NCBI RefSeq assembly: GCF_009914755.1
Contig: NC_060925.1
Strand: one strand, 5' to 3'
Length of the DNA: 64,000 nt
Origin: the human T2T-CHM13v2.0 reference genome, Homo sapiens
In this document: piece after piece, positions 6,613 to 61,538 of the stretch
Layout of the letters: every line of letters begins with the position of its first letter
How positions within the stretch are numbered: the first letter of the stretch is position 1
The notes under the pieces: model-generated
The model's database searches: none
What the model was told of the DNA's origin: nothing
Seen by the model: only the letters and a program-made list of their open reading frames with translations
Translations under genes and position numbers: made by a program

Positions 6613-6613
<1 letters not shown>
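1..6613 (+). repeat. Human satellite III (HSat3), diverged (CATTC)n array with interspersed CACTCGGGTTGATTC-type motifs
   Basis: Continuous CATTC pentamers with recurring ACTCGGGTTG variants. The array ends abruptly at ...TTCCATTC|GCCAGGGAGGGC. Confidence 0.97.
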
Positions 6614-11400: not shown

Positions 11401-13774
11401 TCTATGCACTGATCACCGACGTGACACAACTCTTTTCTGGGATCTGCTTACAAGGGGCATTGTGACATATTTCTGCCCTGATCACCCAGTTGATGTAACT
11501 CTTGTCTAGGCTCTGCCTACTGGAGACATTGTGACATATCTCAGCACTGATCACCCAGGTGATGTCACTTTTGTCAAGGATATGCCTACAGGGACATTGT
11601 TGCATGTCACTGCACTGATCACACAGCTGATGTAACTGTTGTCTAGGCTCTGGCTACAGGGGGCTTGTGACACATCTCTGCACTGATCACCCAGGTGATG
11701 TAAACTTTGTCTACTCTGCCAAAAAGGGGCATTGTGACATAACTCTGCACTGATCACCCAGGTGATGGGACTCTTGTCTAGGCTCTGCCTACAGCGGCAT
11801 TGTGACATATCTCTGCAGTGATCACGCAGGTGATGTAACTCTTCTCTATATCTGCCTACTGGTGGCATTGTGGCATATTTCTACACTGATCACCCAGGTG
11901 ATGGACTCTTGTCTTGGATCTGCCTATGTGGTCATAGTGACATATCTCTGCACTGATCACTCATGTGATGTAACCCTTGTCTAAGCTGTGACTAAAGTTG
12001 AATTGTGACAGATGTCTCCAGTGATCACCGAGGTGATGTAACAGTTTCCTGGGATTTGTCTACACGGGGCTTTGTGACATATCTTTGCACTGATCACCCA
12101 GGAGATATAACTCTTGTCTAGGCTCGGCCTACTTGGCATTTGTGACATATTTCTGAACTGATCACCTAGGTGACGTAACTCTTGTCTAGGCTCCACCTAC
12201 AGGGGTATTGTGACGTATCTCTGCACTGATCTCCCAGGTGATGTAACATTTATCTAGGCTCTGCCTACTGGGGCGTTTTGACATAGCTCTGCACAGAGCA
12301 CCTAGGTTATGTAACTCTTTTCCACTGTCTGCCTACAGGGGGCATTGTGAAATATCTCTGCACTGATCACCCAGGTGATGGGACTCTTCTCTATGCTCTG
12401 CCTAGAGAGGGATTTGTGACATATCTCTGCACTTATCACCCAGGTGATGGAAGTGTTGTCTAGGCTCTGTCTATGGGGGCGTTGTGTCAAATATCTGCAC
12501 TGATCACCCAGGTGATGTAACTCTTGTCTAGGCTCTGTCTACAGGGATTTTTGTGACATATCACTGCACTGTTCACCTAGGTGATGTAAGCCTTGTACGG
12601 GCTTTGCCTACAGAAGGCTTTGTGATATATCTATGCACTGATATCTGAGGTGATGCAACTCTTGTCTAGGCACTGCCTACAGGGGACATTGGTACATCTC
12701 TCTGCACTGATCACTGAGATGATGGGCTCTTCTCTTAAATCTGCCTACATGGACATTGTGACACATCTCTGAACTGATCAACCAAGTGATGAAACTCTTG
12801 TCTAGGCTCTGCCTACAGGGGCTTTGTGACACATCTCTGCACTGTTCAACCTGGGGAGAGAACTCTTGTCTACGCTCAGCCTACAGGAGACTTTATGACT
12901 TATACCTCCACTGATAACCTAGGTGATGTAACACTTGTCTAGGCTCTGCCTACACGGAAATTCTCACGTATATCTGCACTGATCACCCAGGTGATGTAAC
13001 TCCTGTCTAGGTTCAGCTTACAGGAGCGTTTTGACATATCTCTGCACTGATCTCCCAGGTGATGTAACCCTTGTCTAAGCTCTGCCTACAGGGGCATTGT
13101 GACAGATCTCTCCACTGCTCACCCAGGTTATGTAACAATTGTCTTGCTTTGCCTACAGGGGGCTTTGTGATATAGATTTCCACTGATCCAACAGGTGATG
13201 TAACCCTTGTCAAGGTTCTGCTTTCAGCGGCTTTGTGACATATCTCTGCACTGATCACCCCAGGGAGGAAACACTTGTCTACACTCTGCCTACAGGAGGC
13301 TTTACGTCTTAACACTGCACTGATCACTAGGTGATGTAACACTTGTGTAGGCTCTGTCTACAGGGGAATTTTCCAATATCTCTACACTGATCACCTGAAT
13401 GATGTAACCCTTGTCTAGGTTCAGCTTACTGGGGATTTCTGACATATCTATGCATTGATCACTAGGTGATGTAACACTTGTGTAGGTTCTGTCTACACGG
13501 GAATTTTCCAATATCTCTACACTGATCACCTGAATGATGTAACCCTTGTCTAGGTTCAGCTTACTGGGGATTTCTGACATACCTATGCACTGATCACCGA
13601 GGTGATGTAAATCATTTCCAGGCTTTTTGTACAGGAGACATTGTGAAGTATCTCTGCACTGATCACCCAAATGATGCAAATCTTCTCTAGGCTCCGCAGG
13701 GAGGGGCATTGTGACATGTTTCTGAACTGATCATCCAGGAGATGTAACCATTCTCCAGGCTTTGAAGAAAGAGT
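8468..13774 (-). repeat. Beta satellite (68-bp Sau3A family) block 1
   Basis: Tandem 68/69-bp monomers reading TGATCACCCAGGTGATGTAACTCTTGTCTAGGCTCTGCCTACAGGGGCATTGTGACATATCTCTGCAC on the + strand. Strand is given relative to DUX orientation. Confidence 0.96.
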
Positions 13775-14355: not shown

Positions 14356-15950
<1,595 letters not shown>

Positions 15951-17450: not shown

Positions 17451-26759
<9,309 letters not shown>

Positions 26760-27803
26760 GTCGCAAGTTGTTGGGAGAGCCTCAGCTGGAATTTCACGGA
26801 TGGACAAGGGCACAGAGAGGCCAGCGGGCTCCCTTGCACGTTAACCGGGGTGGGCAATGAGTGCAGATCTAACCAGGAGGTCAGCAAAGAGAGCTAGATG
26901 TCTGCTTTCTGCCATCAGGCGCTCCATGGTGGTAGCTGGGAGGCTGCAGGGGCACGGGCGGCCCAGCGACGCTGTCGCGGAGGCGAGGAGGGGGCGAGCT
27001 GCTGGAGTGTCAGGCCTGGACGCTGCACGGGCCTGCTGTTTCACGGGACGGCGGTCTCCACCCAGCCCAGGGGAGGACGAATTTTCCGGGGGTGGGGGGT
27101 GGGGGTGGGGTGGGGATGGTCAGGTGGGGGTGGGGCGGTAGGAAGCCATGAGAGCTCTGCCCAGGCTGCTCCGACAGCACAGGCGGTGGCCCGCAAACAC
27201 GCACGTGCACAGTAGGCGGCCCAATTGCTTTTACCTGGGCCGGCTGTGGGATCCCTGGGATGCCCAGGAAAAAATGCAGTTCTTCGCTGGGTGGAGTCTC
27301 TCACTGGGCCTAGACCTAGAAGGCAGGAATCCTAGGCCAGTCAGCCCAGTGATGGGGGTGGAGGGAAGACACGCCCCTCCATAGTCAGCCAGGTGTTCCC
27401 TGAGAAAGAGAGGCCACCGCCCTGCCCCGACCCAACCCGTCCCAACCCCGCGTCCTAAAGCTCCTTCAGCAGAGCCCGGTAATCTTCCTCGCTGGGGGGT
27501 GCTTCCATCGAGGCGGCCTCTTCCAAGGCCTCCAGCTCCCCTGGTGCCTCCGTTTCTAGGACAGGTTGCAACTGCTGCAAAATCTCTGGGCTCACCAGGA
27601 GCTCATCCAGCAGCAGGCCGGAGGGGAGTCTAGACGAGCTCCCAGGCTCCTGGAGCACCTGTGACGGGGCCGGGATGCATTGCATCTGCCCCTGCCATGT
27701 GGAGGCCTCCGGGGGCACAGGATGGCGAGGTGGAGATGCCCCGGCTTGGGGTTCCCCCGCCACCTCTGCGACCTGGGGAACCTGGAACCATCCCCACTAC
27801 GGA
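26760..27803 (-). pseudogene. DUX4L: DUX4-like fragment D: C-terminal domain, exon 2, intron 2 and exon 3/pLAM only (homeoboxes lost)
   Basis: ORF 27455..27763 ends LLLDELL...[11 protein letters not shown]. Homology is cut at ~27803 by the inversion breakpoint. Confidence 0.9.
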
Positions 27804-27844
27804 TGCCCAGGAAAGAATGGCAGTTCTCCACTGCCTAGAAAACT

Positions 27845-28572
27845 CAGCCTAGACAACAGTTACATCACCTCGTTTAACATGCAGAGATATGTCAAAATGG
27901 CCCTGTTGGCAGAGCCTACACAAGTGTTACATCACTTAGGTGATCAGTGCAGAGATATGTCACAATACCCCCTGTAAGCAGAGCCAAGATAAAAGTTATA
28001 TCACCTGGGTGATCAGTGCAGAGATATATGACAAGGCCACTTTAAGCAGAGCCTAGACAATAGTTACATCACCTGAGTGATCAGTGCAGAGATCTGTCAC
28101 AATGCCCCTTTAGGCAGAGCTTAGACCAGAGTTACATCACCTGGGTGATCAGTGCAGAGATATGTCAAAATGCCCCCATAGGCAAATCCAAGACAAGAGT
28201 CCGCCACCTGGGTGATCAGTGCAGAAATATGTGACAATGCCCCCACGAGACAGAGCCTAGAGAAGTGTCCCATCACAGGGGTGATCATTGCAGAGATATG
28301 TCACAAAGCCCCCATACACAGAGCATAGACAAGTGTCCCATCACCTGGGTGATCAGTGCAGATATATGTCACAATGCCCCCATAGGCAGATCCAACACAA
28401 GAGTTACATCACCTGGGTGATCAGTGTAGAGATATGTCACAATGTCCCATAGGCAGAGCCTATACAAAAGTCCGATCCCCTCGGTGATCAGTGCAGAGAT
28501 ATGTCACAAAGCCCCTGTAGGCAGAGCCTAGAAAAGAGTTACATCACTTTGTTGATCAGCTCAGAGATGTGT
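27845..28572 (+). repeat. Beta satellite block 3 (inverted orientation)
   Basis: Monomers read GATCAGTGCAGAGATATGTCACAATGCCCC on the + strand. Confidence 0.95.
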
Positions 28573-31316
<2,744 letters not shown>

Positions 31317-34300
31317 TCTCTTTAGTCAAAGCCTGGAGAACAGTTACATCTCCTGGATTATCAGTTCAGAAACATGTCACAATGTCCCCTCACTGTGGAG
31401 CCTAGAGAAGATTTGCATCATTTGGGTGATCAGTGCAGAGATAGATATATCACAATGTCCCCTGTACAAAAAGCCTGGAAATGATTTAAATCACCTCGGT
31501 GATCAGAGCATAGGTATGTCAGAAATCCCCAGTAGGCTGAACCTAGACAAGGGTTACATCACTTAGGTGATCAGTGTAGAGATATGTGAAAATTCCCATG
31601 TAGACAGAGCCTAGACAAGTGTTACATCATCTAGTGATCAGTGCAGGGATAAGTCGTAAAGCCTCCTATAGGCAGAGGGTAGTCAAGTGTTTCCTCCCTG
31701 GGGTGAACAGTTCAGAGATATGTCACAAAGCCCCTGTAAGCAGAACCTTGACAAGGGTTACATGACCTGTTTGATCAGTGGAAATGTATACCACAAAGCC
31801 CCCTGTAGGCAAAGCCCAGACAATTGTTACATCACCTGGGTGAGGAGTGGAGAGATCTGTCAGAATGCCCCTGTAGGCAAGCTTAGACAAGGGTTACATC
31901 ACCTGGGTGATCCGTGCAGAGATATGTCAAAACGCTCCTGTAGGCTGAACCAAGACAGGAGTTCCATCACCCGGGTGATCAGTGCAGAGATATGTGAGAA
32001 TCCCCGTGTAGGCAGAGTCTAGACAAGTGTTACATCAGCTAGGTTAGCAATGCAGGTATAAGTCATAAAGCGTCCTGTAGGCTGAGCTTAGACAAGAGTT
32101 CCCTCCCGAGGGTGATCAGTGCAGAGATGTGTCACAAAGCCCCTGTAGGCAGAGCCTAGACAAGAGTTTCATCACTTGGTTGATCAGTTCAGAGATGTGT
32201 CACAATGTCCACGTAGGCAGATCTAAGACAAGAGTCCATCACCTAGGTGATCAGTGCAGAGATATGTACCAATGTTCCCTGTAGGCAGTGCCTAGACAAG
32301 AGTTGCATCACCTCAGAAATCAGTGCATAGATATGTCACAAAGCCTTCTGTAGGCCAAGCCCATCCAAGGCTTACATCACTTAGGTGATCAGTGCAGTGA
32401 TATGTCACAAAAATCCCTGTAGACAGAGCCTAGAAAAGAGTTACATCACCTGAGTGATCAGTACAGATATTTGACACAATGTCCCCATAGACAGAGCCTA
32501 GACAAGATTTCCATCACCTGGGTGATCAGTGCAGAGATATTTCACAATGCTCCCTGTAGGCAGGGAGTGGACAAGAGTTACATAACCTAGGTGATCTGTG
32601 CAGAGCTATGTCAAAACGACCCTGCAGGCAGAGCCTAGATAAATGCTACATCACCTAGGTGATCAGTGCAGAGATACGTCACGATACTCCCTGTAGGTGG
32701 AGAATAGACAAGAGTTACATCACCTGGGTGATCAGTGCAGAGATATGTCACAAAGAACCCTGTAGGCAGAGCATAGACAAGAGTTACACCACCTGTGTGA
32801 TCAGTGCAGAAATATGTCACAAAGCCCCTGTAGGCAGAGCCTAGACAAGAGTTACATCTCCTGGGTTATCAGTGCAAAGACATTTCACAAAGCCCCCTGT
32901 AGACAAATCCCAGAAAATTGTTACATCATCTGGGTGATCAGTGGAGATATCTGTAACACTTCCCCTGTAGACGCAGTGTAGACAAGCGTTATATCACATG
33001 AGTGATCAGTGCAGAGATATGTCACTATGCCCTATAGGCAGATCCAACAGAAGAGCCCATAACCTGGGTGATCAGTGCAGAAATATGCCACAATGCCACC
33101 AGTAGGCAGATATAGACAAGAGTTACATCACCTGCGTGATCACTGCAGAGTTATGTAACAATGCCCCTGTAGGCAGATCCTAGACAAGAGTCCCATTACC
33201 TGGGTGATCAGTGCAGGGTTATGTCACAATGCCCCCTTTTGGCAGAGCCTAGACAAGGATTATATCACGTGGGTGATCAGTGAAGAGATGTGTCACAAGC
33301 CCCCTGTAGCCAGAGCCCTGACAAATTTTACATCAGCTGTGTGATCAGTGCAGTGACATGTCACAATGTCCCTGTAGCCATATCCTTGAAAAAGACATCA
33401 CCTGGGTGATCAGTGCAGAGAGTTGTCACAATGTCTCCAGTAGGCAGAGCCTAGACAAGAGTTACATCACCTGGGTGACCAGGTCAGAGATATGCCACAA
33501 TGCCCCCTGTAAGCAGATCCCAGACAAGTGTTGCATAACCTCGGTGATCAGTGCAGAGATATGTCTCAATGCCCCCTGTCGCGAAGCCTATACAAGAGTT
33601 AAATCGTCTCGGTGATCAGTGCAGTGATACGTTAAAATGCCCCAGTAGGCAGAGCCTGTACAAGAGTTCCATCACCGGGGTGATCAGTGCAGAGATATGT
33701 CATAAATCCCACTGTAGGCACAGCCTAGACATGTTTTACATCACCTCAGCGATCAGTGTAGAGATATGTCCCAATGTCCGTCTAGGCAGAGCTTAGACAA
33801 GAGTCACATCTCCTGGGTGATCAGTACAGAGATAAGTCACAATGCCCCCATAGGCAGAGCCTAGACAAGTGTTACATAACCCACGAGATTCATGCAGACT
33901 GATGTCACAACTCCCTCTGTAGGCAGAGACTAGAAAAGAGTTACATCACCTGGGTGATCAGTGCAGATTTATGTCACAATGCCCCCTGCAGGCAGAGCAT
34001 AGAGAAGAGTTGCATCACCTGGGTGATCAGTGTAGAGATATGTCACAATGTCCCCTGTAGGCAGAGCTTAGAGAAGAGTTGCATCACCTGGGTGATCAGT
34101 GCAGAGATATGTCACAATGTCCCCTGTATGCAAAGCCTAGGTAAGAGTTACATCACCTTTGTAATCAGTTCAGGGATCTGTGAAAACGCACATGTAGGCA
34201 GAGCCTACACAAGAGTTACATCACCTATTTGATCAGTGCAGAGATATCTCACAATACCCACTGTAAGCAGAGCCTAGACAAGAGTTACATCACCTGGGTG

Positions 34301-37042
34301 ATCAGTGAAGAGATATGTAATAAATCCCACTGTAGGCAAAGCCTAGACAAGTTTTACATCAACTCATCGACCAGTGCAGAGATATATCCCAATGTCCCTC
34401 TAGGCAGAGTTTAGACAAGAGACACATCTCCTGCGTGATCAATGCAGGGCTAAGTCACAATGCCCCCATAGACAGAGCCTAGATGAGAGTTACATAACCC
34501 GGGTGATCCGTGCAGAGTTATGTCACAACGCCCTCTGTGGGCAGAGACTAGAAAATAGTTACATTACCTGGGTGATCTGTGCAGAGATATGTCACAATTA
34601 CCCCTGTAAGCAGAGCATAGAGAAGAGTTGCATCACCTGGGTGATCAGTGCAGAGATATGTCACAATGTCCCCTGTAGGCAGAGCATAGAGAAGAGTTGC
34701 ATCACCTGGGAGATCAGTGCAGAGATATGTCACAATGTCCTCTGTAGGGAAAGCCTAGGCAAGAGTTACATCACCTTTGTCATCAGTTCACGGATATGTG
34801 AAAACGCCCCTGTAGGCAGAGCCTAGACAAGAGTTACATCCCCTAGTTGATCATTGCAGAGATATTTCACTATACCGCCTGTAGGCAGATCCTAGACAAG
34901 AGTTGAGTCACCTGAGTGATCAGTGCAGAGATATTTCACAATGCCCCCTTTGGGCAGAGGGTAGACAACAGTTACATCACCTAGGTGATCAGTGCAGAGA
35001 TTTGTCAAAATTCCCTGTAGGCAGTGCTTATAAAACTGTTACATCACCCAAGTGAACAATGCAGAGATATGTCACAAAGCTCCTGTAGGCAGAACTTAGA
35101 TGAGTTACATCACCTGCATGATCAGGGCAAATGTATGTCACAAAGCCCCTTGTAGGCAAAGCCTAGACAATAGTTACTTTACTTGGGTGATCAGTGGCGA
35201 GTTCTCTCACAGTTCCCCTGTAGGCAGAGCTTATACAACAGTTACATCACCTGGGTGATCAGTGCAGAGATGTGTCACAATGCCCCCATAGGCAGATCCA
35301 TGACAAGAGTCCGTCACCTGGGTGATCAGTGCAGAAATATTTCACAATGCTACCTTAGGCAGAGCTTAGACAAAAGCCCCTTCACCTGGATGATCAGTGC
35401 AGAGTTATGTCACAGAGTCCCTTTATGCAGATCCTAGACAAGAGTTACATCACTTGGATGATCAGTGCAGGGATATGTCACAATGCCACTGTAGGCAGAG
35501 CCTAGACAAGAGTTACACGACTTACGTGATCAGTGCAGAGATACATCGCAATGTCCCTGTAGGCAGAGCCTTGAGAAGTGGTACATCACCTGGGTGATCA
35601 TTGCAGGGATATGTCACACAGCACCCTGTAGGCAGATCCTAGAAAAGAGTTACATCACCTGTGTGATCCGTGCAGAGATATGTCACAATGCCACTGTAGG
35701 CAGAGACTAGAGAAGAGTTACATGACCTAGGTGATCAGTGCAGATACATCGCAATGTACCTGTAGGCAGAGCCTTGACAATTCCTATATCACCTGGGTGA
35801 TCATTGCAGTGATATGTCACAAAGCACCCTCTAAGCAGATCCTAGAGAAGAGTTATATCACCTGGGTGATCACTGCAGACTTATGTCACATGACCCCTGT
35901 AGGCAGAGCCTAGATAAGAGTTTTATCACCTGGGTGGTCAGTGCAGTGCTTTGTCACAATGCCGTGTAGCCAGAGACTATACTAAATTTACAGCACCTGG
36001 GAGATCAGTGCAGAGATATGTCACAATGTCCCCAGTAGGCAGAGACCCGGCCAGAGTTGGATCACCTCGGGATCAGTGCAGAGATATGTCTCAATCCCCC
36101 TGTGGGCACAGCCTAGACAGCAGTTACATCACAGTGGTTACCAGTGCAGAGTTATGTCAAAATGCCCCTGTAGGCAGAGCCTACACAAGTGTTATATCAC
36201 TTAGGTGATCAGTGCAGTGATATGTCACAATACCCCCTGTAAGCAGAGCCCAGACAAGTGTTACGTCACCTGGGTGTTCAGTGCAGAAATATGTGACAAT
36301 GCCCCCTTAAGCAGAGCCTAGATGATAGTTACATCACCTTAGTGATTAGTGCAGATATCTGTCACAATGCCCCTTTAGGCAGAGCTTAGACCAGAGTTAC
36401 ATCACCTGGGTGATCAGTGCAGAGATATGTCACAATGCCCCCATAGGCAAATCCAAGGCAAGAGTCCGTCACCTGGGTGATCAGTGCAGATATATGTGAC
36501 AATGCCCCCAGTAGGCAGAGCCTAGAGAAGAGTCCCATCACCTGGGTGATCAGTGCAGAGATATTTCACAATGCCCCTGCAGGCAGAGCGTAAGCAATAG
36601 TTACATCACCTAAATTATCAGTGCAGAAATATGTCACAAGGCCCCCTATATGCAGAGCCTGGACAACAGATACATCACCTCGGTGATCAATGCAGTGATA
36701 TGTCACTATGCCCCGTAGGCAGAGCCTAGTCAAGCGTTACATCACCTGGGTGACCAGTGCAGAGATATGTCACAAAGCCCCCATACACAGAGCCTAGACA
36801 AGAGTCCCATCACCTGGGTGATCAGTGCAGAAATATGTCACAATGCCCCCATAGGCAGATCCAACGCAATAGTTACATCACCTGGGTGATCAGTGTAGAG
36901 ATATGTCACAATGCCCCCATAGGCAAAGCCTGGACAAAAGTCCCATCAGCAGGGTAATCAGTGCAGAGATATGTCACAAAGCCCCTGTAGGCAGAGCCTA
37001 GACAAGAGTTACATCACTTTGTTGATCAGTTTAGAGATGTGT
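31317..37042 (+). repeat. Beta satellite block 4
   Basis: 68-bp monomers in + orientation. Confidence 0.96.
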
Positions 37043-39808
<2,766 letters not shown>

Positions 39809-42800
39809 CCTCCTTAGTCAAAGCCTGGAGAATAGTTACATCTCCTGGATGATCAGTTCAGAAACATGTCACAATGTCCCCTCCCTGTGGAGCCTAGAGA
39901 AGATTTGCATCATTTGGGTGATCAGTGCAGAGATATATCACAATGTCCCCTGTACAAAAAGCCTGGAAATGATTTACATCACCTAGGTGATCAGTGCATA
40001 GGTATGTTGGAAATCCCCAGTAGGCTGAACCTAGACAAGGGTTACATCACTTAGGTGATCAGTGTAGAGACATGTGAAAATTCCCGTGTAGACACAGACT
40101 ATACAAGTGTTACATCACCTAGTGATCAGTGCAGGGATAAGTCGTAAAGCCTCCTGTAGGCAGAGTGTAGACAACTGTTTCTTCCCTGGGGTGATCAGTG
40201 CAGGGCTATGTCACAAAGACCCTGTAAGCAGAAACTTGACAAGGGTTGCATCACCTGTTTGATCAGTGGAAATGTATATCACAAAGAACCCTTTAGGCAA
40301 AGCCCAGACAATTGATACATCACCTGGGTGAGCAGTGGAGAGATCTGTCAAAATGCCCCTATAGGCAGAGCTTAGACAAGGGTTACATCACCTGGGTGAT
40401 CAGTGCAGAGATTTGTCAAAACGCTCCTGTAGGCTGAACCCACAAAGGAGTAACATCACCTGGGTGATCAGTGCAGAGATATGTGACAATTCCCGCGTAG
40501 GCAGAGCCCAGACAAGTGTTACATCACCTAGGTTATCAGTGCAGGTATAAGTCATAAAGCCTCCTGTACGCAGAGCGTAGACAGGAGTTCCCTCCCCAGG
40601 TTGAACAGTGCAGAGATGTATCACAAAGCACCTGTAGGCAGAGCCTAGACAAGAGTTTCATCACTCAGTTGATCAGTTCAGAGATGTGTCACAATGTCCA
40701 TGTAGGCAGATCTAAGATGAGAGTCCATCACCTGGGTGATCAATGAAGAGATATGTACCAATGTCCACTGTAGGCAGCGCCTAGGCAAGAGTTGCATCAC
40801 CTCAGAGGTCACTGCATAGATATGTCTCAAAGCCTTCTGTAGGCAAAGCCCATACAAGGCTTACATCACCTAGGTGATCAGTGCAGTGATATGTCACAAA
40901 AATCCCTGTAGACAGAGCCTAGAAAAGAGTTACATCACCTGGGTGATCAGTGCAGATATTTGACACAATGTCCCCATAGACAGAGCCTAGACAAGACTTC
41001 CATCACCTGGGTGATCAGTGAAGAGATATGTCACAAATCCCCCTTTAGGCAGAGCATAGAGAAGAGTCCCATCACCTGGGTGATCAGTGCAGAGATATTT
41101 CACAATGCCCCCTGTAGACAGAGAGTGGACAAGAGTTACATAACCTAGGTGCTCTATGCAGAGCTATGTCAAAACGCCCCAGTAGGCAGAGCCTAGATAA
41201 ATGTTACATCACCTGGGAGATCAGTGCAGAGATACGTCACAATACACCCTGTACGTGGAGCCTAGACAAGAGTTACATCACCTGGGTGATCAGTGCAGTG
41301 ACACGTCAAAGTAACCCCTGTAGTCAGAGCCAAAACAAGAGTTACATCTCCTGGGTGATCAGTGCAAACATAAGTCACAAAGCCCCTGGTAGACAAATCC
41401 CAAAAAATTGTTACATCACCTGGGTGATCAGTGCAGAGATATGTCACAATGCCCCTTGTAGGCAGAGCATACAGAAGAGTTGTATCACCTGGGTGATCAG
41501 TGCAGAGATATGTCACAATGTCCCCTATAGGCAGAGCATTGAGAAGAGTTGCATCACCTGGGTGATCAGTGCAGAGATATGTCACAATGGCCCCTGTAGG
41601 CAGAGCATAGAGAAGAGTTGCATCACCTGGGTGATCAGTGCAGAGATATATCACAATGTCCCCTGTAAGCAAAGCCTAGGCAAGAGTTACATCACCTTTG
41701 TCATCAGTTCAGGGATATGTGAAAACGCCCCTGTAGGGAGAGCCTAGACAAGAGTTACATCACCTAGTTGATCAGTGCAGAGATATATCACAATACCCAC
41801 TGTAGGCAGATCCTAGACAAGAGTTGAATCACCTGGGTGATCATTGCACAGATATTTCACAATGCTCCCTTTGGGCAGAGGGTAGACAAGAGTTACATCA
41901 CCTAGGTGATCAGTGCAGAGATTTGTCAAAATCCCTGTAGGCAGTGCTTATAAAAGTGTCACATCACCGAAGTGATCAGTGCGGAGATATGTCACAAAGC
42001 TCCTGTAGGCAGAACTTAGATGAGTTACGTCACCTGGGTGATCAGTGCAAAGGTATGTCACAAAGCCCCCTGTAGGCAAAGCCGAGACAATAGGTACATC
42101 ACTTGGGTGATCAGTGGCGAGATCTCTCACAATTCCCCTGATTGCAGAGCTTATACAACAGTGACATCACCTGGGTGATCAGTGCAGAGATATGTCACAA
42201 TGCCCCCATAGGCAGATCCAAGACAAGAGTCCGTCACCTGGGTGATCAGTGCAGAAATATGTCACAATGCCCCCTTAGGCAGAGCCTAGACAAAAGCCCC
42301 ATCACCGGGATGATCTGTGCAGAGTTATGTCACAAAGTACCTTTAGGCAGATCCTAGACAAGTGTTACATCACTTGGATGATCAGTGCAGAGATATGTCA
42401 CAATGCCACTGTAGGCAGAGCCTAGACAAGAGTTACATGACCTAGGTGATCAGTGCAGAGACACAACACAATGTCACTGTAGGCAGAGCCTTGACAAGTG
42501 GTACATCACCTGGGTGATCATTGCTGGTATATGTCACAAAGCACCCTGTAGGCAGATCCTAGAAAAGAGTTACAACACCTGGGTGATCAGTGCAGAGTTA
42601 TGTCACAATGCCACTGTAGGCAGAGACTAGACAATAGTTACATGACCTAGGTGATCAGTGCAGAGATACATCGCAATGCCCCGGTAGGTAGAGCCTTGAC
42701 AAGTGTTATATCACCAGGGTGATCATTGCAGGAATATGTCACAAAGCACCCTGTAGGCAGATCCTAGAAAAGAGTTATATCACCTGGGTGATCAGTGCAG

Positions 42801-48270: not shown

Positions 48271-51200
48271 AGGATCTGCCTACAGGATGCTTTGTGACAT
48301 ATCCCTGCAATGATCACCCAGGTGATGTACTACTTGTCAAGGCTCTGCCTACAGGGACATTGTGACGTATCTCTACAATGATCACCTAGGTCATGTAACT
48401 CTTGTCTAGGCTCTCCCTAAAGTGGCATTGTGACATATCTCCGCACTGATCATCCAAGTGATGTAACACTTGTCTAGGATCTGCCTAAAGGGATTTTGTG
48501 ACATAACTCTGCACTGATCATCCCAGTTTTGGGGCTTTTGTCTAGGCTCTGCCTAAGGGGGCATTGTGACATATCTCTGCACTGATCACACAGGTGATGT
48601 AACCGTTGTATAAGCTCTGCATACTGGGGAATTGTGAGAGATATCGCCACTGATCACCCAAGTGATGTAACTATTGTCTAGGCTTTGCCTAAAGGGGGTT
48701 TTGTGACATACCTTTGCACTAATCACCCAGGTGATGTAACTCATCTAAGTTCTGCCTACAGAAGTTTTGTGACATATCTCTGCACTGATCACTTAGGTGA
48801 TGTAACACTTTTATAAGCACTGCCTACAGGGAATTTTGACAAATCTCTGTACTGATCACCTAGGTGATGTAACTCTTGTCTACCATCTGCCCAAAGGGGG
48901 CATTGTGAAATATCTCTGCACTAATCACCCAGGTGATTCAACTCCTGTCTAGGATCTGCCTACAGCGGCGTTTTCACATATCCCTGAATTGATGACAAAG
49001 GTGATGTAACTCTTGCCTAGGCTTTGCCTACAGGGGACATTGTGACATATGTCTGCAATGATCACCCAGGTGAGGCAACTCTTCTCTATGCTCTGCCTAC
49101 AGGGGACATTGTGACATATCTCTTCACTGATCACCCAGGTGATGCAGCTCTTCTGTATGCTCTGCCTCCAGGGGGCATTGTGACATATCTCTGCACTGAT
49201 GACCTAAGTGATGTAACACTTGTGTAGGCTCTGCCTACAGGGGAATTTTGACATATCTCCGCACTGTTAACCGAGGTGATGTAACTCTTGTCTAGGCTGT
49301 GCCCACATGGGGATGGAGAACTATCTCTGCCCTGATCCCGAGGTGATCCAACTCTTGCCTAGTCTATGCCTACTGGGGACATTGTGACATATCTCTGCAC
49401 TGATCTCCCAGGTGAGTAACTTTAGTCTAGGCTCTGGATACACGGCATTATGATATATCACTGCACTGATCACCCAGGTGTTATAACTCTTGTCTAGGCT
49501 CTGCCTAAAGGGTTCTTGTGACATATCTCTTCACTGATCACCCTGGTGATTTAACTCTTCTCTAGGATCTGCCTACATGGTGCTCTGTGACATATACCTG
49601 CAGTGATCACCAAGGTGATATACCCCTTGTCAAGGCTGTGCCTACAGGGGCATTGCGATGTATCTCTGCACTGATCACCTAGGTCATGTAACTCTTGTCT
49701 AGGCTCTGCCTACAGTGGCATTGTGACATATCTCTTCACTGATCATCCAGGTGATGTAACTCTTTTCTAGGATCTGCCTACAGGTTGCTTTGTGACATAT
49801 CCCTGCAATGATCACCCAGGTGATGTACCTCTTGTCAAGTCTCTGCCTACAGGGACATTGCGATGTATCTCTGCACTGATCACCTAGATCATGTAAATCT
49901 TGTCTACGCTCTGCCTACAGTGGCATTGTGACATATCTCTGCACTGATCATCTAAGTGATGTAACTCTTGTCTAGGATATGCCTAAAGGGATTTTGTGAC
50001 ATAACTCTGCACTGATCATCCCGGTTTTGGGGATTTTGTCTAGGCTCTGCCTAAGGGGGCATTGTGACATATTTCTGCACTGATCACCCAGGTGACAGAC
50101 TCTTATCTTGGATCTGCCTATGGGGGCATTGTGACATATCTCTGCACTGATCACCCAGGTGATGTAACTGTTGTATAAGCCCTGCTTACAGGGGAATTGT
50201 GAGAGATATCGACCCTTATCACCCAGGTGATGTAAGTATTGTCTAGGCTTTTCCTGCAGGGGGCTTTGTGACATACTTTGCACTGATCACCCAGGTGATG
50301 TAACTCATCTAAGTTCTGCCTACAGGAGCTTTGTGACATATCTCTGCACTGATCACATGGGCGATGTAACACTTTTATAAGCACTGCTTACAGGGAATTT
50401 TGACAAATCCCTGCACTGATCACCTTGGTGATGTAACTCTTGTCTACCCTCTGCCCAAAGGGGGCATTGTGAAATGTCTCTGCACTTATCACCCAGGTGA
50501 TTCAACCCTTGTCTAGGATTTGCCTACAGCGGCGTTTTCACATATCCCTGAACTGGTGACAAAAGTGATGTAACTCTTGCCTTGGCTTTGCCTACAAGGG
50601 ACATTGTGACATATCTCTGCACTGATCACCCAGCTGATGCAACTCTTCCCTATGCTCTGCCTACAGGGGACATTGTGACATATCTCCGCACTGATCACCC
50701 AGGTGATGCAGCTCTTCTGTATGCTCTGCCTCCAGGGGGCATTGTGACATATCTCTGCACTGGTCACCCACGTGATGTAACTCGTCTAGGCTCCGCTTTC
50801 AGGGGGAATTGTCACATATCTCTGCACTGATCACCTAAATGATGTAACACTTGTGTAGGCTCTGCCTACAGGGGCATTGCGATGTATCTCTGCACTGATC
50901 ACCGAGGTCATGTAACACTTGTCTAGGCTCTGCCTACAGTGGCAATGTGACATATCTCTGCACTGATCACCCAGGTGATGTAACTCTTTTCTAGGATCTG
51001 CCTATAGGGACTTTGTGACATAACCCTGCACTGATCATCCAGGTGATGGGGTTTTTGTCTAGGCTCTGCCTAAGGAGGCATTGTGACATATTTCTGCACT
51101 AATCACCCAGGTGACAGACTCCTGTCTTGGATTTGCCATTTGGGGCATTGTGACATATCTCTGCACTGATCACCCAGTTGATGTAACTCTGGTCTAAGCT

Positions 51201-54200
51201 CTGCCTAAAGGGGCATTGTGACATATCTCTGCACTGATCACCCAGGTGATGTAACTGTTGTATAAGCTCTGCCTAAAGGGGAATTGTGAGAGATCATGCC
51301 ACTGATCACCCAAGTGATGTAACTATTGTCTAGGATTTTCCTACAGAGGGCTTTGTGACATACCTTTGCACTGATCACCCAGGTGACGTTACTCATCTAA
51401 GCTCTGCCTACAGGAGCTTTGTGACATATCTCTTCACTGATCACATAGGTGATGTAACACTTTTATAAGCACTACCTACAGGGAATTTTGAAAAATCTCT
51501 GCACTGATCACCTAGGTGATGTAACTCTTGTATACCCTCTGCCCAATGGGGGCATTGTGGAATATCTCTGCACTGATCACCCAGGTGATTCAACTCTTGT
51601 CTAGGATATGCCTACAGGGGGTATTGTGAGATATATCTGCACTGATCAACTAGGTGATGTAAACAGTGTCTAGGCTCTGCCTCCAGGGGCGTTTTCACAT
51701 ATCACTAAACTGATGACAAAGGTGATGTAACTCTTGCCTAGGCTTTACCTACAAGGGACATTGTGACATACCTCTGCACTGATTACCCAGGTGATGCAAC
51801 TCTTCTCTATGCTCTGCCTACAGGGACATTGTGACATATATCTGCACTGATCACCCAGGTGATGCAACTCTTCTCTATGCTCTGCCTACAGGGCGCATTG
51901 TGACGTATCTCTGCACTGATCACCGAGGTGATGCAACTCTTGTCTGGGATCTGCTTACAGGGGGCAGTGTGACATATCTCTGCCCTGATCACCCAGGTGA
52001 TGTAACTCTTGTCTAGGCTCTGCCTACTGGAGACATTGTGACATATCTCCGCAATGATCACCCAGGTGATGTCACTTTTGTCAAGGATGTGGCTACAGGG
52101 ATATTGTGACATGTCACTGTACTGATCACACAGCTGATGTAACTCTTGTCTAGGCTCTGGCTACAGGGGGCTTGTGACACATCTCTGCACTGATCACCCA
52201 GGTGATGTAACCCTTGTCTAGGCTCTTCCAAAAGGGGTCCTTGTGACATAACTCTTCACTGATCACCCAGGTGATGGGACTCTTGTCTAGGCTCTGCCAA
52301 CAGGGACATTGTGACATATCTCTGCAGTGATCACGCAGGTGATATAGCTCTTGTCTATATCTGCCTACTAGCGGCATTGTGGCATGTTTCTGCACTGATC
52401 ACCCAGGTGATGGACTCTTGTCTTGGATCTACCTATGGGAGCATAGTTACATATCTCTGCACTGATGATCACCCGGGTTATGTAACTCTTTTCTAGGCTC
52501 TGCCTATGGGGGCATTGTGACTTATCTATGCACTGATCACCTAGGAGTTGTAACTCTTGTCTAAGCTCTGCCTATAGGGACATTGGGACATATTTCTGCA
52601 CTGATTGCTGAGGTGATGTAAAATTTGTCTAGGCTTTGCCTACAGTGGAATTTATGACATATCTCGGCACTGATCACCCAGGTGATGGAACTCTTGTCTA
52701 GGCTCTACTTACAGGTGGTATTGTGAGATATCTCTGCACTGATCACCCAGGGGATGTAACTCTTGTCTAGGCACTGCCTACAGTTGCATTTTCACATATC
52801 ACTGCACTAATCACCGAGATGATGTAACTCTTGTATAGGCTTCGCCGACAGGGGGCATTGAGACATATTTGTGCACTGATCACCGAGGTGATGCAACTCT
52901 TGACTGGGATCTGCTTACAGGGGACATTGTGACGTATCACTGCCCTGATCACCCAGGTGATGTAACTCTTGTCTAGGCTCTGCCTACTGGAGACATTGTG
53001 ACATATCTCCGCACTGATCACCCAGGTGATGTCACTTTTGTCAGGGATATGGCTACAGGGACATTGTGACATGTCACTGCACTAATCACACAGCTGATGT
53101 AACACTTGTCTAGGCTCTGGCTACAGGGGGCTTGTGACACATCTCTGCACTGATCACCCAGGTGATGTAACCCTTTTCTAGGCTCTACCAAAAGGGGCAT
53201 TGTGACATAACTTTTCACTGATCACCCAGGTGATGGGACACTTGTCTAGTCTCTGCCTACAGGGGCATTGTGACATATCTCTGCAGTGATCACACACGTG
53301 ATGTAACTCTTGTGTATATCTGCCTACTGGCGGCATTGTGGCATATTTATGCACTGATCACCCAGGTGATGGACTCTTGTCTTGGATCTGACTGTGGGGG
53401 CATAGTGACATATCTCGGAACTGATCACTCACGTGATGTAACACTTGTCTAAGCTGGGCCTAAAGGGGAATTGTGACAGATGTCTCCAGTGATCACGGAG
53501 GTTATGTAACAATTTTCTGGGATTTGTCTACAGGGGTCTTTGTGACATATCTTTGCAATTATCACCCAGGAGATGTAACTCATGTCTAGGCTCGGCCTAC
53601 AGGGTCTTTGTGACATATTTCTGCACTGATCACCGAGGAGATGTAACACTTGTTTAGGATCTGCCTACAGGGTCTTTGTGACATATTTCTGTACTGATCA
53701 CCCAGGTGATGTAACTCTTGTTTAGACTCTGCCTAAAGGGGCTTTGTGACATATTTCTGTACTGATCACCCAGGTGATGTAACTCTTGTCTAGGCTCCAC
53801 CTACAGGGTGTATTGTGACTTTTCTCTGCACTGATCACCCAGGTGATGTAACTCTTGTCTAGGCTCCACCTACAGGGTGTATTGTGAGGTATCTCTGCAC
53901 GGATCACCCAGGTGATGTAACATTTATCTAGGCTCTGCCTACAGGGGCGTTTTGACATGGCTCTGCACAGATCACCTATGTTATGTAACTCTTGTCCACT
54001 CTCTGCCTACAGGGAGCATTGTGAAATATCTCTGCACTGATCACCCAGGTGATGGGACTCTTCTCTATAGTCTGCCTAGAGGGGGAATTGTGCCACATCT
54101 CTCCACTGATCACCCAGGTGATGGAAGTCTTGTCTGGGCTCTTTCTATGGGGGCATTGTGTCAAATATCTGCACTGATCACACAGGTGATGTAACTCTTT

Positions 54201-55249
54201 TCTAGACTCTGTCTACAGGGATTTTTGTGATATATCACTGCACTGATCACCTAGGTGATATAACCCTTGTATCGGCTTTGCCTACAGAAGGCTTTGTGAC
54301 ATATCTATGCACTGATCTCTGAGGTGATGCAACTCTTGTCTAGGCACTGCCTGCAGGAGACATTGGTACATATCTCTGCACTGATCACACAGGTGATGGA
54401 CTCTTGTCTTAGATCTGCCTGCATGGACATTGTGACACATCTCTGAACTGATCAACCAAGTGATGAATCTCTGGTCTAGGCTTTGCCTACAGGGGCTTTG
54501 TGACACATCTCTGCACTGATCACCCTGGGGAGGAACTCTTGTCTACGCTCTGCCTACAGGAGGCTTTATGTCTTATACCTGCACTGATAAGCTAGGTGAC
54601 GTAACTATTGTCTAGGCTCTGCCTACACGGGAATTCTCACATATCTCTGCACGGATCACCCAGGTGATGTAACCCTTCACTAAGCTCTGCCTACAGGGGC
54701 ATTGTGACAGATCTCTCCACTGCTCACCCAGGTGATGTAACAATTGTCTGGGCTTTGCCTACAGGGGGCTTTGTGATATACATTTCCACTGATCAAACAA
54801 GTGATGTAACCCTTGTCAAGGTTCTGCTTACAGGGCTTTGTGACATAACTCTGCACTGATCACCCCAGGGAGGAAACACTTGTCTACACTCTGTGTACAG
54901 GAGGCTTTATGACTTACTTATCCCTGCACTGATCACTAGGTAATGTAACACTTGTCTAGGCTCTGTCTACACGGGAATTTTCACATATCTCTACACTGAT
55001 CACCTAAGTGATGTAACCCTTGTCTAGGTTCAGCCTACTGGGGATTTCTGACATACCTATGCACTGATCACCGAGGTGATGTAAATCATTTCCAGGCTTT
55101 TTGTACAGGGGACATTGTGATATATCTCTGCACTGATCTCCCAAATGATGTAAATCTTCTCTAGGCTCCGCAGGGAGGGAGCATTTTGACATATTTCTGA
55201 ACTGATCATCCAGGAGATGTAACTATTCTCCAGGCTTTGACTAAAGAGC
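48271..55249 (-). repeat. Beta satellite block 6
   Basis: 68-bp monomers; orientation reverts to that of blocks 1 and 2. Confidence 0.96.
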
Positions 55250-58004
<2,755 letters not shown>

Positions 58005-61000
58005 ACTCATTTCTGAACTGATCAGCAATGTGATATAACCCTTGTCTAGGCTCTGCCTATAGAGGCATTGTGTCATACCTCTACACTGATCACCCAGGTG
58101 ATGTAACTCTTGTGTTGGATCTGCCCATGGGGGCATTGTGACATATTTCTGCACTGATCACCCAGGTGATGGGACTCTTGACTAGGCTCTGTGTATGGGG
58201 TCTTTGTGACATATCTCTGCAATGATCACCCAGGTGATGTAACCCTTGACTAGGCTCTGCCTACGGGACATAGTGACATATCACTGCATTGATCACCGAG
58301 GTGACGTAACTCTTGTCCAGGATCCGCCTATAGGGGGCCTTGTGACATATCTCTGCACTGATCATCTAGGTGATGTAACTCTTGCTTACGCTCTGCCTGC
58401 AGGGGCATTGTGACATATCTCTGCACTGATCACCCAGCTGATGGGACTCTTCTATAGGCTCTGCCTACTTGGGGCATTGTCACATATTTCTGCACTGATC
58501 ACCCAGGTGACGGACTGTTGTCTTGGATTTGCCTTTGGGGGCATTGTGACATATCTCTGCACTGATCACCCAGGTTATGTAACTCTGGTTTTAGCTCTGC
58601 CTAAAGGGGCATTGTGACAGATTTCTGCACTGATCACTCAGGTGATGGAACTATTGTCTAGGCTCTGCTTAAAGGGGCCTTGTCACATATCTCTGCACTG
58701 AACACCCAGGTGATGTAACTCTTGTCTAGGCTCTGCTTACAGGGGGTATTGTGACATATCTCTGCACTGATCACCTCGGTAATGTAAAACTTGTGTAGGC
58801 TCTGCCTACAGGGGCATTTTGACATATCTCTGCACTGTTAACCGAGGTGATGTAACTCTTGTCTGGGCTGTGCCCACAGGGGGATTGAGACGTATCTCTG
58901 CACGGATCCCGAGGTGATCCAACTCTTGCCTGGTCTCTGCCTACTGGGGACATTGTGACATATCTCTGCACTGATCTCCCAGGTGCTGTAACTTTAATCT
59001 AGGCTCTGGCTACACGGCATTGTGACATAACACTGCACTGATCACCCAGATGATATAACTCTTGTCTAGGCTGTGCCTATACGGGGCTTGTGACATATCT
59101 CTGCACTGATCACCCAGGTGATATAACTCTTCTCTGGGATCTGCTTACAGGGTTCTTTGTGACATATCCCTGCATTGATCACCCAGGTGATATACCACTT
59201 GTCAAGGCTCTGCCTACAGGGGCATTGTGACAGAACTCTGTACTGATCACCCAGGTGATGGGACTCTTGTCTAGGCTCTGCCAACAGTGGCATTGTAACA
59301 TATCCCTGCACTGATCACCCAGGTGATGTAAATCTTTTCTAGGATCTGCCTAAGGTTGCTTTGTGACATATCCCTGCAAAGATCACCCAGGTAATATACC
59401 ACTTGTCAAGGCTCTGACTAAAGGGACATTGCGATGTATCTCTGCACTGATCACCTAGGTCATGTGACTCTAGTCTATGTTCTTCCTACAGTGGCTTTGT
59501 GACATATCTCTGCACTGATCATCCAAGTTATGTAACAATTGTCTAGGATCTGCCTAAAAGGACTTTGTGACATAACTCTGCACTGATCACCCAGGTGTTG
59601 GGGCTTTTTTCTAGGCTCTGCCTAAGGAGGCTTTGTGACATTTTTCTGCACTGATCACCCAGGTGACGGACTCTTGTCTTGGATCTGCCTATGGGGGCAT
59701 TGTGACATATCTCTACACTGATCACCCAGGTGATGTAACTGTTGTATAACCTCTGCCTACAGGGGAATTGTGAGAGATCTCACCACTCATCACCCAAGTG
59801 ATGTAACTATGGTCTAGGCTTTGCCTATAGGGGTCTTTGTGACATACCTTTTCAGTGATCACACAGGTGATATAACTCATCTAAGTTCTGCCTACAGGAG
59901 CTTTGTGGCATATCTCTGCACTGATCTCTTAGGTGATGTAACACTTTTATAAGCACTGCCTACAGGGAATTTTGAAAAATCTCTGCCCTGATCACATAAG
60001 TGATGTAACTCTTTTCTAGGATCTGCCTACAGGGTTCTTTGTGACATATCCCTGCAATGATCACCCAGGTGATGTAGCACTTGTCAAGGCTCTGCCTACA
60101 GGGACATTGCGATGTATCTCTGCATTGATCACCTAGGTCATGTAATACTTGTCTATGCTCTGCCTACAGTGGCATTGTGTCGTATCCCTGCACTGATCAT
60201 CCAAGTGATGTAACACTTGTCTAGGATCTGCCTAAAGGGAATTTGTGACATTACTCTGCACTGATCATCCAGGTGATGGGGCTTTTGTCTATACTCTGCC
60301 TAGAGAGAGATTTGTGACATATCTCTGCACTGATCTCCCAGGTGATGGAAGTCTTGTCTAGGCTCTGTCTATGGGGGCATTTTTTCAAATATCTCCACTG
60401 ATCACCCGGGTGATGTAACTCTTTTCTAGGCTCTGTCTACAGGGATTTTTGTGACATATCACTGCACTGATCACCTAGGTGATGTAAGCCTTGTATGGGC
60501 TTTGCTTACCGAAGGCTTTGTGACATATCTCTGCACTGATCTCTGAGGTGATGCAACTCTTGTCTAGGCACTGCCTACAGGGGACATTGGTATATATCTT
60601 TGCACTGATCCCCCAGGTGATGGACTCCTGTCTTAGATCTGCCTACATGGACATTGTGACACATCTCTGAACTGATCAACCACGTGATGAAACTCTTGTC
60701 TAGGCTCTGCCTACAGGGGCTTTGTGACACATCTCTGCACTGATCACCCTGGGGAGGGAACTCTTGTCTACGCTCTGCCTACAGGAGGCTTTATGACTTA
60801 TACCTGTACTGATAACCTAGGTGATGTAACACTTGTGTAGACTCTGCCTACACTGGAGTTCTCACATATCTCTGCACTGATCACCCGGGTGATGTAACTC
60901 CTGTCTTGGTTCAGCCTACAGGAGCGTTTTGACATATCTCTCAACTGATCACCCAGGTGATGTAACCCTTCACTAAGCTCTGCCTACAGGGGCATTGTGA

Positions 61001-61538
61001 CAGATCTCTCCACTGCTCACCCAGGTGATGTAACTGTTTTCTGGGCTTTGCCTACAGGGTGCTTTCTGATATATGTTTCCACTGATCAGCAGGTGATGTA
61101 ACCCTTCTCAAGGTTCTGCTTACAGGGGCTTTGTGACGTATGTCTACACTGATCACCTCAGGGAGGAAACACTTGTCTACACTCTGCCTATGGGAGGCTT
61201 TACGACTTATCCCTGCACTGATCACTATGTGATGTAACACTTGTCTAGGCTCTGTCTACAAGGGAATTTTCACATATCTCTACACTGATCACCTAAGTGA
61301 TGTAACCCTTGTCTAGGTTCAGCCTACTGGGGATTTCTGACATACCTATGCACTGATAACCGAGGTGATGTAAATCATTTCCAGGCTTTTTGTATAGGGG
61401 ACATTGTGATATATCTCTGCACTGATCACCCAAATGTTGCATATCTTCTCTAGGCTCCACAGGGAGGGGGAATTGTGACATATTTCTGAACTGATCATCC
61501 AGGAGATGTAACTATTCTCCAGGCTTTGACAAAAGAGC
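58005..61538 (-). repeat. Beta satellite block 7
   Basis: 68-bp monomers. Confidence 0.96.

What the first reader, a model, noticed from the sequence alone, without database searches (positions are those of the whole stretch)
55141..55260. The FSHD poly(A)-signal position is a beta-satellite hexamer, seen here as GTCACA and GTCAAA
Seen: six pLAM-to-beta-satellite junctions share GTTACATCTCCTGGATGATCAGTTCAGAAA(C/T)AT-hexamer-ATG.CCCTCCCTG with minor variation. The hexamer is GTCACA (beta-satellite consensus) at 13710-13715, 26695-26700, 31376-31381, 39868-39873 and 61474-61479, and GTCAAA at 55185-55190. Established (recalled): 4qA carries ATTAAA and 10qA carries ATCAAA at this position. Inference: the pathogenic signal arose by point mutation in the first beta-satellite monomer, with GTCACA ancestral. 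Copy H is one change from the 10qA form and two from the 4qA form. No copy here should be polyadenylated at this site.
Basis: partly seen in the sequence, partly recalled or inferred. Interest (0 to 1): 0.7.

Follow-up and report, generated by a model that had tools for sequence, protein, structure and literature searches.

The report
Satellite origin of FSHD poly(A) signal
The poly(A) signal that permits the muscle disease FSHD lies inside the first unit of a beta-satellite repeat, at a spot where most related copies (five of six in this chr1 window) read GTCACA; it was likely built by three point mutations in the human line, the last likely on chromosome 4 alone, while the GTCAAA copy here likely arose separately and is predicted to be inactive.

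Summary
Observation confirmed. All six hexamers are where stated. The 4q ATTAAA and 10q ATCAAA align without gaps to beta-satellite GTCACA, about 52 bases into the first monomer. GTCACA is ancestral: 171 of 195 anchored junctions carry it, including chr18p, the sister of 4q/10q. GTCAAA at 55185 is not an intermediate: its sister copy has GTCACA, and grouping it with 4q/10q is rejected (AU p=0.003).

(1) Parsimony makes 10q ATCAAA the older state and ATTAAA a gain on 4qA.
(2) The 4q/10q stem carries 19 substitutions in 288 bases around the signal (16 G/C>A/T, none reverse), against 21 in 1651 elsewhere. Two of them create a U/GU-rich TTTTGTGTG, found only on 4q/10q, at downstream-element distance.
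(3) A 2012 paper reports that chimpanzee 4q pLAM lacks a signal and that the region resembles human 18p, suggesting a human-line origin.

Known already: the paralogs, the chimpanzee absence, and a role for downstream beta-satellite. Register, polarity and cluster were not found in ten searches, but key papers were unreadable. Nothing functional was tested.

The parts
55185..55190 (-). GTCAAA: variant of the beta-satellite GTCACA hexamer at the position homologous to 4qA ATTAAA and 10qA ATCAAA; an independent C>A change
55175..55243 (-). First (junction) beta-satellite monomer; satellite homology starts about 52 bases before the hexamer in 4q, 10q and 18p
   Evidence: 39 of 45 columns match the monomer majority
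55138..55146 (-). Second-monomer nonamer ATTTGGGAG, at the place where 4q/10q have the U/GU-rich TTTTGTGTG
55244..55387 (-). pLAM-like segment (homolog of the 5' part of DUX4 exon 3); boundary transferred from the end of D4Z4 self-homology on 4q
55388..58004 (-). 5'-truncated divergent D4Z4-like unit (86.6% to the 4q terminal unit over 55196-58004); DUX4-like frame broken by a frameshift near 57050, no intact homeodomain ORF
48271..55243 (-). 68-bp beta-satellite array, about 102 monomers; no AATAAA or ATTAAA on the DUX4-sense strand
13710..13715 (-). GTCACA at the homologous junction position
26695..26700 (-). GTCACA at the homologous junction position
31376..31381 (+). GTCACA at the homologous junction position
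39868..39873 (+). GTCACA at the homologous junction position
61474..61479 (-). GTCACA at the homologous junction position

Best explanation
The 55185 site is one of about 200-330 copies of an old junction between a D4Z4/pLAM segment and a beta-satellite array, and the FSHD poly(A) signal on 4qA occupies the GTCACA hexamer of that junction's first satellite monomer, from which it likely arose by three point mutations (G>A and C>A likely in the common ancestor of 4q and 10q, then C>T likely on 4qA alone), while the GTCAAA at 55185 is likely a separate, predicted-inactive mutation. Shown: register, the GTCACA majority, tree positions, and a cluster of AT-ward changes on the 4q/10q stem. Inferred: a local burst of mostly neutral G/C>A/T mutations in the first three to four monomers produced ATCAAA and a U/GU-rich TTTTGTGTG 38-46 bases past the hexamer (a candidate CstF-binding downstream element). 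One later transition gave the CPSF-recognised ATTAAA, so the signal, the reported cleavage sites and the candidate downstream element of DUX4 exon 3 are all satellite-derived. Inferred from a 2012 report: this happened in the human line after the split from chimpanzee.
For: Register: (local alignment starts at -52; 38 of 45 columns match the monomer majority, ordinary monomers mean 89%). Census: 171 of 195 anchored junctions GTCACA; position 1 not G in 11 of 195; position 5 not C in 8 of 195; A[A/T]TAAA in this register found once in the genome, on 4q. Trees with the hexamer left out: 4q+10q sister to chr18p GTCACA (100/100) and 55185 sister to C22:9.64 Mb GTCACA (100/97) (same pairs on upstream flank alone); AU p=0.0027. 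Polarity of position 3: chr18p and the satellite have C, only 4q has T; crude neutral odds reversion/gain 0.04. Cluster: 19 of 288 versus 21 of 1651 columns, Fisher p=7e-7, scan p=5e-5; 19 on the stem versus 4 on 18p, p=0.003; 37 differences from the paralog majority versus at most 17 in 56 paralogs and 19 in 18p; 4q vs 18p 9.0% in the cluster, 2.7% downstream. Full TTTTGTGTG context only on 4q and 10q (2 exact of 16 matches with up to 1 mismatch). Print: chimpanzee 4q pLAM 93% to human with no poly(A) signal; that region 97.8% to human 18p11.32 and 96.2% to 10q26 (PMC3488192); cleavage 16-22 nt after the signal and downstream elements 30-60 nt after it (PMC5368697); downstream beta-satellite needed for DUX4 cleavage (Peart and Wagner 2017 as cited in PMC5983732).
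Against: One human genome only; no ape or archaic sequence was seen. The chimpanzee statement is 'not shown' in its paper, its supplements were unreadable, and a 2026 paper finds no array at the chimpanzee 4q-syntenic locus in the T2T assembly (PMC13558733), so orthology of that BAC is uncertain. 4q and 10q exchange sequence, which can blur polarity, and a C>T then T>C path costs only one extra step. The cluster's width was chosen after seeing the data. Paralogs also drift AT-ward (308:155). The stretch -400..-68 is also 6.1% divergent between 4q and 18p, though split evenly between branches (8 vs 8). The anchor misses junctions with variant anchors (2 of the 6 in the window), and the trees hold only 69 non-randomly chosen junctions. 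The downstream-element role of TTTTGTGTG is untested.
Confidence: 0.75

Rival explanations
1. ATTAAA arose on the common 4q/10q stem together with the other changes, and 10qA lost it by T>C (a loss reading of the usual statement that 10qA carries a variant that disables the signal).
For: The stem is mutation-rich here (3 C>T among 64 C sites). 4qA is regarded as the ancestral location (PMC13558733). 4q/10q exchange occurs.
Against: It needs two changes at one site instead of one; crude neutral odds 0.04. chr18p, the satellite and 10q all have C.
Confidence: 0.12
2. The substitution cluster is a gene-conversion patch from a more distant paralog that is missing from this genome (for example the D4Z4/beta-satellite copy reported on chimpanzee 3p12), not a local mutation burst.
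For: The locus is rich in exchange. Chimpanzee has a second linked array on 3p12 that humans lack (PMC3488192).
Against: A donor of normal rate would raise the changes assigned to both branches, yet the split is 19 vs 4. No donor was found among 40 scored of 2049 candidates or by exact pattern. 4q/10q keep the states they share with 18p inside the patch.
Confidence: 0.12
3. Selection for a working DUX4 3' end (germline or embryo) drove several of the changes, making this an adaptive recruitment of satellite DNA.
For: Five of the 19 changes fall on the hexamer, just after the cleavage region, or in the U/GU-rich stretch. Testis 4A transcripts are reported to prefer the exon 3 site (PMC2965761).
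Against: Most changes lie outside such elements. ATCAAA, the inferred stem state, is described as non-functional. 10qA and 4qB chromosomes are common, and chromosome 10 transcripts use a distal signal in testis.
Confidence: 0.12
4. GTCAAA at 55185 is a surviving intermediate on the path GTCACA > GTCAAA > ATCAAA > ATTAAA.
For: It shares the position-5 A with 4q/10q.
Against: Its sister copy has GTCACA, and the sister of 4q/10q has GTCACA. AU p=0.0027 and five origins of position-5 A. GTCAAA occurs in 28 of 481 ordinary monomers.
Confidence: 0.02
5. A poly(A) signal was ancestral and the dispersed copies were homogenised back to the satellite consensus.
For: A 2026 paper suggests that the pseudo-arrays came from the 4q35/10q26 arrays (PMC13558733).
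Against: The paralogs keep junction-specific variants on both sides of the hexamer. chr18p has GTCACA, and chimpanzee pLAMs are reported without a signal.
Confidence: 0.02

Closest known systems
4qA pLAM / DUX4 exon 3 poly(A) site (FSHD-permissive allele) and 10qA pLAM
   Same: Same junction, and the same first to fourth satellite monomers in register.
   Different: The window copy has GTCAAA, lacks the U/GU-rich nonamer, follows one truncated, frameshifted D4Z4-like unit rather than a tandem array, and is about 83% identical over 401 bases.
LSAU-BSAT composite / divergent D4Z4-pLAM copies (PMC9949141: 13 full and 319 5'-truncated copies in T2T-CHM13; PMC12963445 Table 1: 57 on chr1q12, none with a poly(A) signal)
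   Same: 5'-truncated unit of about 2.9 kb plus pLAM plus beta-satellite in chr1 pericentromeric DNA.
   Different: Nothing structural. In the passages I saw, these papers do not relate the hexamer to the satellite consensus or polarise it.
Chimpanzee 4q35 D4Z4/beta-satellite junction and human 18p11.32 copy (PMC3488192)
   Same: Reported lack of a poly(A) signal in chimpanzee; 18p is the nearest human relative of 4q/10q.
   Different: That paper does not give the hexamer, its satellite register, the 4q-versus-10q polarity or the substitution cluster (main text read, supplements not).
Repeat-derived poly(A) sites (Alu and L1 tails giving A[A/T]TAAA by point mutation; recalled, no call)
   Same: A processing signal arising by point mutation inside a repeat next to a gene.
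   Different: Here the repeat is a tandem satellite with no A-rich tail, and three changes were needed.

Membership tests
Beta-satellite (68-bp Sau3A family) | 68-bp tandem period | tested here: met
   period 68, 102 copies at 48271-55243
Beta-satellite (68-bp Sau3A family) | The hexamer-bearing segment is itself a monomer | tested here: met
   39 of 45 (55185), 38 of 45 (4q, 10q) and 41 of 45 (18p) columns match the majority of 320 window monomers
Beta-satellite (68-bp Sau3A family) | Match to the curated family model (Dfam/Repbase BSR) | not testable with these tools
   The family name rests on period, GATC sites, homology with the array distal to 4q pLAM and the literature
Divergent D4Z4-pLAM copy (LSAU-BSAT composite) | 5'-truncated D4Z4-like unit joined to pLAM and beta-satellite | tested here: met
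   55196-58004 aligns to 4q query 956-3828 at 86.6%; described in PMC9949141
FSHD-permissive 4qA pLAM | ATTAAA at the signal position | tested here: not met
   GTCAAA; only 4q has A[A/T]TAAA in this register
FSHD-permissive 4qA pLAM | Intact DUX4 ORF upstream | tested here: not met
   two frames, no homeodomain ORF of 80 aa or more in 55196-58004
FSHD-permissive 4qA pLAM | Tandem D4Z4 array upstream | tested here: not met
   a single truncated unit between beta-satellite arrays
Functional poly(A) site | Known signal hexamer at the site | tested here: not met
   none of 13 recalled hexamer variants at the site in any of 6 window junctions
Functional poly(A) site | U/GU-rich downstream element 30-60 nt after the signal | tested here: inconclusive
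   55185 has ATTTGGGAG where 4q/10q have TTTTGTGTG; such elements have no strict consensus
Functional poly(A) site | Cleavage and polyadenylation of a transcript | not testable with these tools
   needs 3'-end sequencing or a reporter

The most novel reading that the evidence does not exclude
A human-specific burst of AT-ward mutations turned the first monomers of a beta-satellite array into a nearly complete poly(A) site (ATCAAA plus a new U/GU-rich downstream element) on the common 4q/10q ancestor. One later C>T on 4qA switched it on and created susceptibility to FSHD, so 10qA is the pre-disease state, one transition away from permissive, not a broken signal.
Probability: 0.45. Interest if true: 0.75.

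Novelty: new variant of a known kind. Interest (0 to 1): 0.55.

Why it matters
It would recast the FSHD-permissive signal as a recent gain from satellite DNA rather than a signal that 10qA lost. That gives a dated, testable account of when FSHD susceptibility arose (ape T2T, archaic genomes, pangenome haplotypes). It names a specific candidate for the DUX4 downstream element, unique to 4q/10q among the junction copies searched, which bears on antisense design and specificity. It also predicts that a single recurrent C>T on 10qA could make a permissive allele without translocation, whereas the roughly 200 dispersed copies are mostly three steps away. The chr1 window copy itself is ordinary.

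Tried and rejected
1. GTCAAA as intermediate: rejected.
2. ATCACA copies as intermediates: 8 copies fall in 5 separate places on the tree and none is a supported sister of the 4q/10q/18p group (C21:6.08 Mb joins it at 92/81, unstarred); position-1 A needs 6 origins.
3. Conversion of 18p toward acrocentric copies as the cause of the stem excess: rejected, because 18p differs from the paralog majority at 19 columns, more than any of 56 paralogs.
4. The 6.2% downstream divergence of 4q from 18p came from a mishandled 68-bp indel; it is 2.7% (21 of 786) with the indel opened, in line. The downstream column is unreliable for other pairs with monomer indels as well and was not used.
5. The tree on 1100 upstream bases is distorted by copies with non-homologous upstream DNA and was used only for the two sister pairs.
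6. Rows left out: L006, L008 and L015 (long, rearranged); those three plus L051, L027, L028 and L029 from the majority count; duplicate loci counted once.
7. A general hotspot in the first monomers: not seen; in 15 other pairs the cluster interval is 0.3-7.6% and exceeds the upstream interval in only 2 of 15.
8. Literature: Lemmers 2010 Science, Lemmers 2010 AJHG, Clapp 2007 and van der Maarel 2011 were not held; Peart and Wagner 2017 was seen only as cited. A search for archaic data gave 0 papers.
9. No ape genome was available.

Full report
1. Observation. The window is a satellite mosaic: a CCATT array (32-6613), then 68-bp arrays alternating with GC-rich D4Z4-like units. Six junctions join a pLAM-like segment to an array. 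The unit upstream of 55185 is 5'-truncated, 86.6% identical to the terminal 4q unit, and its DUX4-like frame is broken.

2. Register. I fetched the distal ends of contigs C4 and C10 from the same genome (contig numbers read as chromosomes). After the shared motif, 4q reads GATAT-ATTAAA-ATGCCCCC and 10q GATAT-ATCAAA-ATTCCCCC, against GATAT-GTCACA-ATGCCCC in ordinary monomers, with no gap. Local alignment to the majority of 320 window monomers starts 52-53 bases before the hexamer in 4q, 10q and 18p. Over 45 columns around it, 38 match in 4q and 10q (ordinary monomers mean 89%, 5th percentile 80%). The signal therefore lies inside the first monomer. The cleavage sites reported 16-22 nt after it (PMC5368697, passages) fall at the end of that monomer. 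Reviews describe pLAM as followed by or ending in beta-satellite (PMC12376486, passages).

3. Census. An exact degenerate anchor finds 195 junctions (control 0). 171 of 195 are GTCACA. 11 of 195 lack G at position 1: eight ATCACA, one CTCACA, 4q and 10q. 8 of 195 lack C at position 5: three GTCAAA, GACAAA, GTCATA, GTCAGA, 4q and 10q. A looser pattern for any monomer with A[A/T]TAAA in this register finds only 4q. The anchor is incomplete: it misses 2 of the 6 window junctions, and PMC9949141 (passages) counts 332 copies. In ordinary window monomers GTCAAA is the commonest variant, 28 of 481, and ATCACA is 13 of 481.

4. Is 55185 an intermediate? No. Its closest relative (C22:9.64 Mb, 94%) has GTCACA. 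The closest relative of 4q/10q is on chr18p (92%, next best 84%; 40 of 2049 candidates scored) and has GTCACA. A tree of 66 junctions on 230 bases upstream and 600 downstream, hexamer removed, gives both sister pairs with full or near-full support. Adding the other three position-5-A junctions and dropping three rearranged rows, position-5 A needs 5 origins and position-1 A needs 6. Holding 55185 with 4q and 10q is rejected (p-AU 0.0027, group named beforehand). The rows are a non-random 69 of at least 195.

5. Polarity. Against 18p and 14 outgroup paralogs, G>A (position 1) and C>A (position 5) map to the common 4q/10q stem and C>T (position 3) to 4q alone. The order of the first two cannot be told, so GTCAAA or ATCACA may have existed transiently on that stem, unrelated to the copy here. 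A crude neutral calculation puts gain-then-reversion at 0.04 of the odds of a single gain. In the passages I saw, 10qA is described as carrying a variant that disables or degrades the signal (PMC12963445, passages and first part of section 9; PMC13138017, passages) and 4qA as the ancestral location (PMC13558733, passages); none polarises the base. Exchange between 4q and 10q (bioRxiv 10.64898/2026.09.03.748401, passages) and the single genome are the main cautions.

6. A substitution cluster. The 4q/10q stem carries 19 substitutions in the 288 informative columns from -68 to +220, against 21 in the other 1651 (Fisher p=7e-7; scan p=5e-5 with the width chosen after looking). The 18p branch has 4 there (p=0.003) and 14 elsewhere. 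Sixteen are G/C>A/T and none the reverse, against 9:7 outside (p=0.007) and 308:155 in paralogs generally; 9 of 19 are G>T or C>A. 4q and 10q each differ from the paralog majority at 37 columns; the maximum among 56 paralogs is 17 and 18p has 19. Pairwise, 4q vs 18p is 9.0% here, 2.7% downstream (correcting a gap artefact) and 6.1% upstream, where the changes split evenly between branches. Two of the changes turn ATTTGGGTG (56 of 66 junctions) into TTTTGTGTG, 38-46 bases after the hexamer, within the 30-60 nt range given for U/GU-rich downstream elements. The full context occurs only on 4q and 10q; each half recurs in 7 paralogs. That it acts as the downstream element is inference; sequences in the downstream beta-satellite are reported as critical for DUX4 cleavage (Peart and Wagner 2017, seen only as cited in PMC5983732, passages).

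7. Timing. PMC3488192 (main text read; supplements unreadable) reports that the chimpanzee 4q pLAM is 93% identical to the human one and has no poly(A) signal (data not shown). It also reports that the chimpanzee D4Z4/beta-satellite piece is 97.8% identical to human 18p11.32 and 96.2% to 10q26. Human 18p is 92% to 4q here, so chimpanzee 4q behaves like 18p and the cluster likely falls on the human line. Against this, PMC13558733 finds no array at the syntenic chimpanzee locus in the T2T assembly.

8. Mechanism. Most likely (0.75): an old pLAM/beta-satellite junction with GTCACA was copied widely. On the lineage leading to human 4q/10q, a local AT-ward mutation burst gave ATCAAA and a U/GU-rich stretch, and one transition on 4qA completed a signal that CPSF can use. 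The dispersed copies, including the six here, are predicted not to be cleaved at this site. They are also reported as heavily methylated in blood DNA. Rivals are loss on 10q, a conversion patch from a missing donor, and selection (about 0.12 each; the last two concern the cause of the cluster and are compatible with the register).

9. Known and new. Known: the dispersed copies and their lack of a signal on chr1, the chimpanzee absence, the role of downstream satellite. Not found in ten full-text searches or in the passages read: the satellite register of the hexamer, its polarity, the cluster. That is a weak negative. The two Lemmers 2010 papers, Clapp 2007 and van der Maarel 2011 were not held, Peart and Wagner 2017 was not read, the searches match words only, and supplements of bioRxiv preprints were closed. 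Other papers seen as passages only: PMC13419748, KaryoScope bioRxiv 10.64898/2026.05.15.725544, PMC2965761, PMC8283208. The comparison with Alu/L1-derived poly(A) sites and the list of variant hexamers are recalled.

10. Verdict. Observation confirmed; interpretation partly supported. The window copy is an ordinary paralog with a recurrent mutation, but the comparison it prompts gives a well-supported satellite origin for the FSHD signal and a testable gain-on-4qA, human-line hypothesis. Interest 0.55; new variant of a known kind (a repeat-derived poly(A) site).

Noticed in passing
window 14356-15738 (-): Open 460-aa DUX4-like ORF with two homeodomain motifs, 81% identical to 4q DUX4 over residues 1-418, upstream of the 13710 junction (GTCACA). 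PMC12963445 describes a 423-aa chr1 copy; not checked whether it is this one.
   Followed up: partly
window 34319-34324 (+): Canonical AATAAA made in an ordinary monomer (GT-AATAAA, two bases off the FSHD register), 2.9 kb downstream of the 31376 junction on the DUX4-like sense strand, whose ORF is broken. The same form occurs at 5 places in the genome: here, C14 twice, C21 and C22. A second route from the same satellite site to a poly(A) hexamer.
   Followed up: partly
window 58993-58998 (-): ATTAAA at another position of a monomer (after CCTAG), about 2.5 kb downstream of the 61474 junction, whose ORF is frameshifted.
   Followed up: no
L031/L033, about 205 bases after the hexamer: The fourth monomer of 4q and 10q reads GTTAAA where 18p and paralogs read GTGAAA: one step from a second ATTAAA.
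   Followed up: no
L037 (C18:263726-267126): The chr18p copy shows no shared differences from 4q/10q over 300 bases at -800 to -500 (D4Z4 part) but 2-9% nearer the junction: possible recent conversion or a mosaic history.
   Followed up: no
L031:7423-7535: The 'unique' part of pLAM is about 80% identical to an internal stretch of D4Z4 itself, so pLAM looks like an old D4Z4 fragment joined to satellite.
   Followed up: no
literature: HPRC2 and KaryoScope report ATTAAA in only about 46% of 4qA haplotypes (KaryoScope requires a 100% match to a pLAM query), while another preprint finds the signal displaced in 7 of 275. The low figure may be a method artefact.
   Followed up: no
window 27803-28573: Two D4Z4-like units face away from each other across a short 68-bp array (27846-28574): an inversion point within the cluster.
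   Followed up: no
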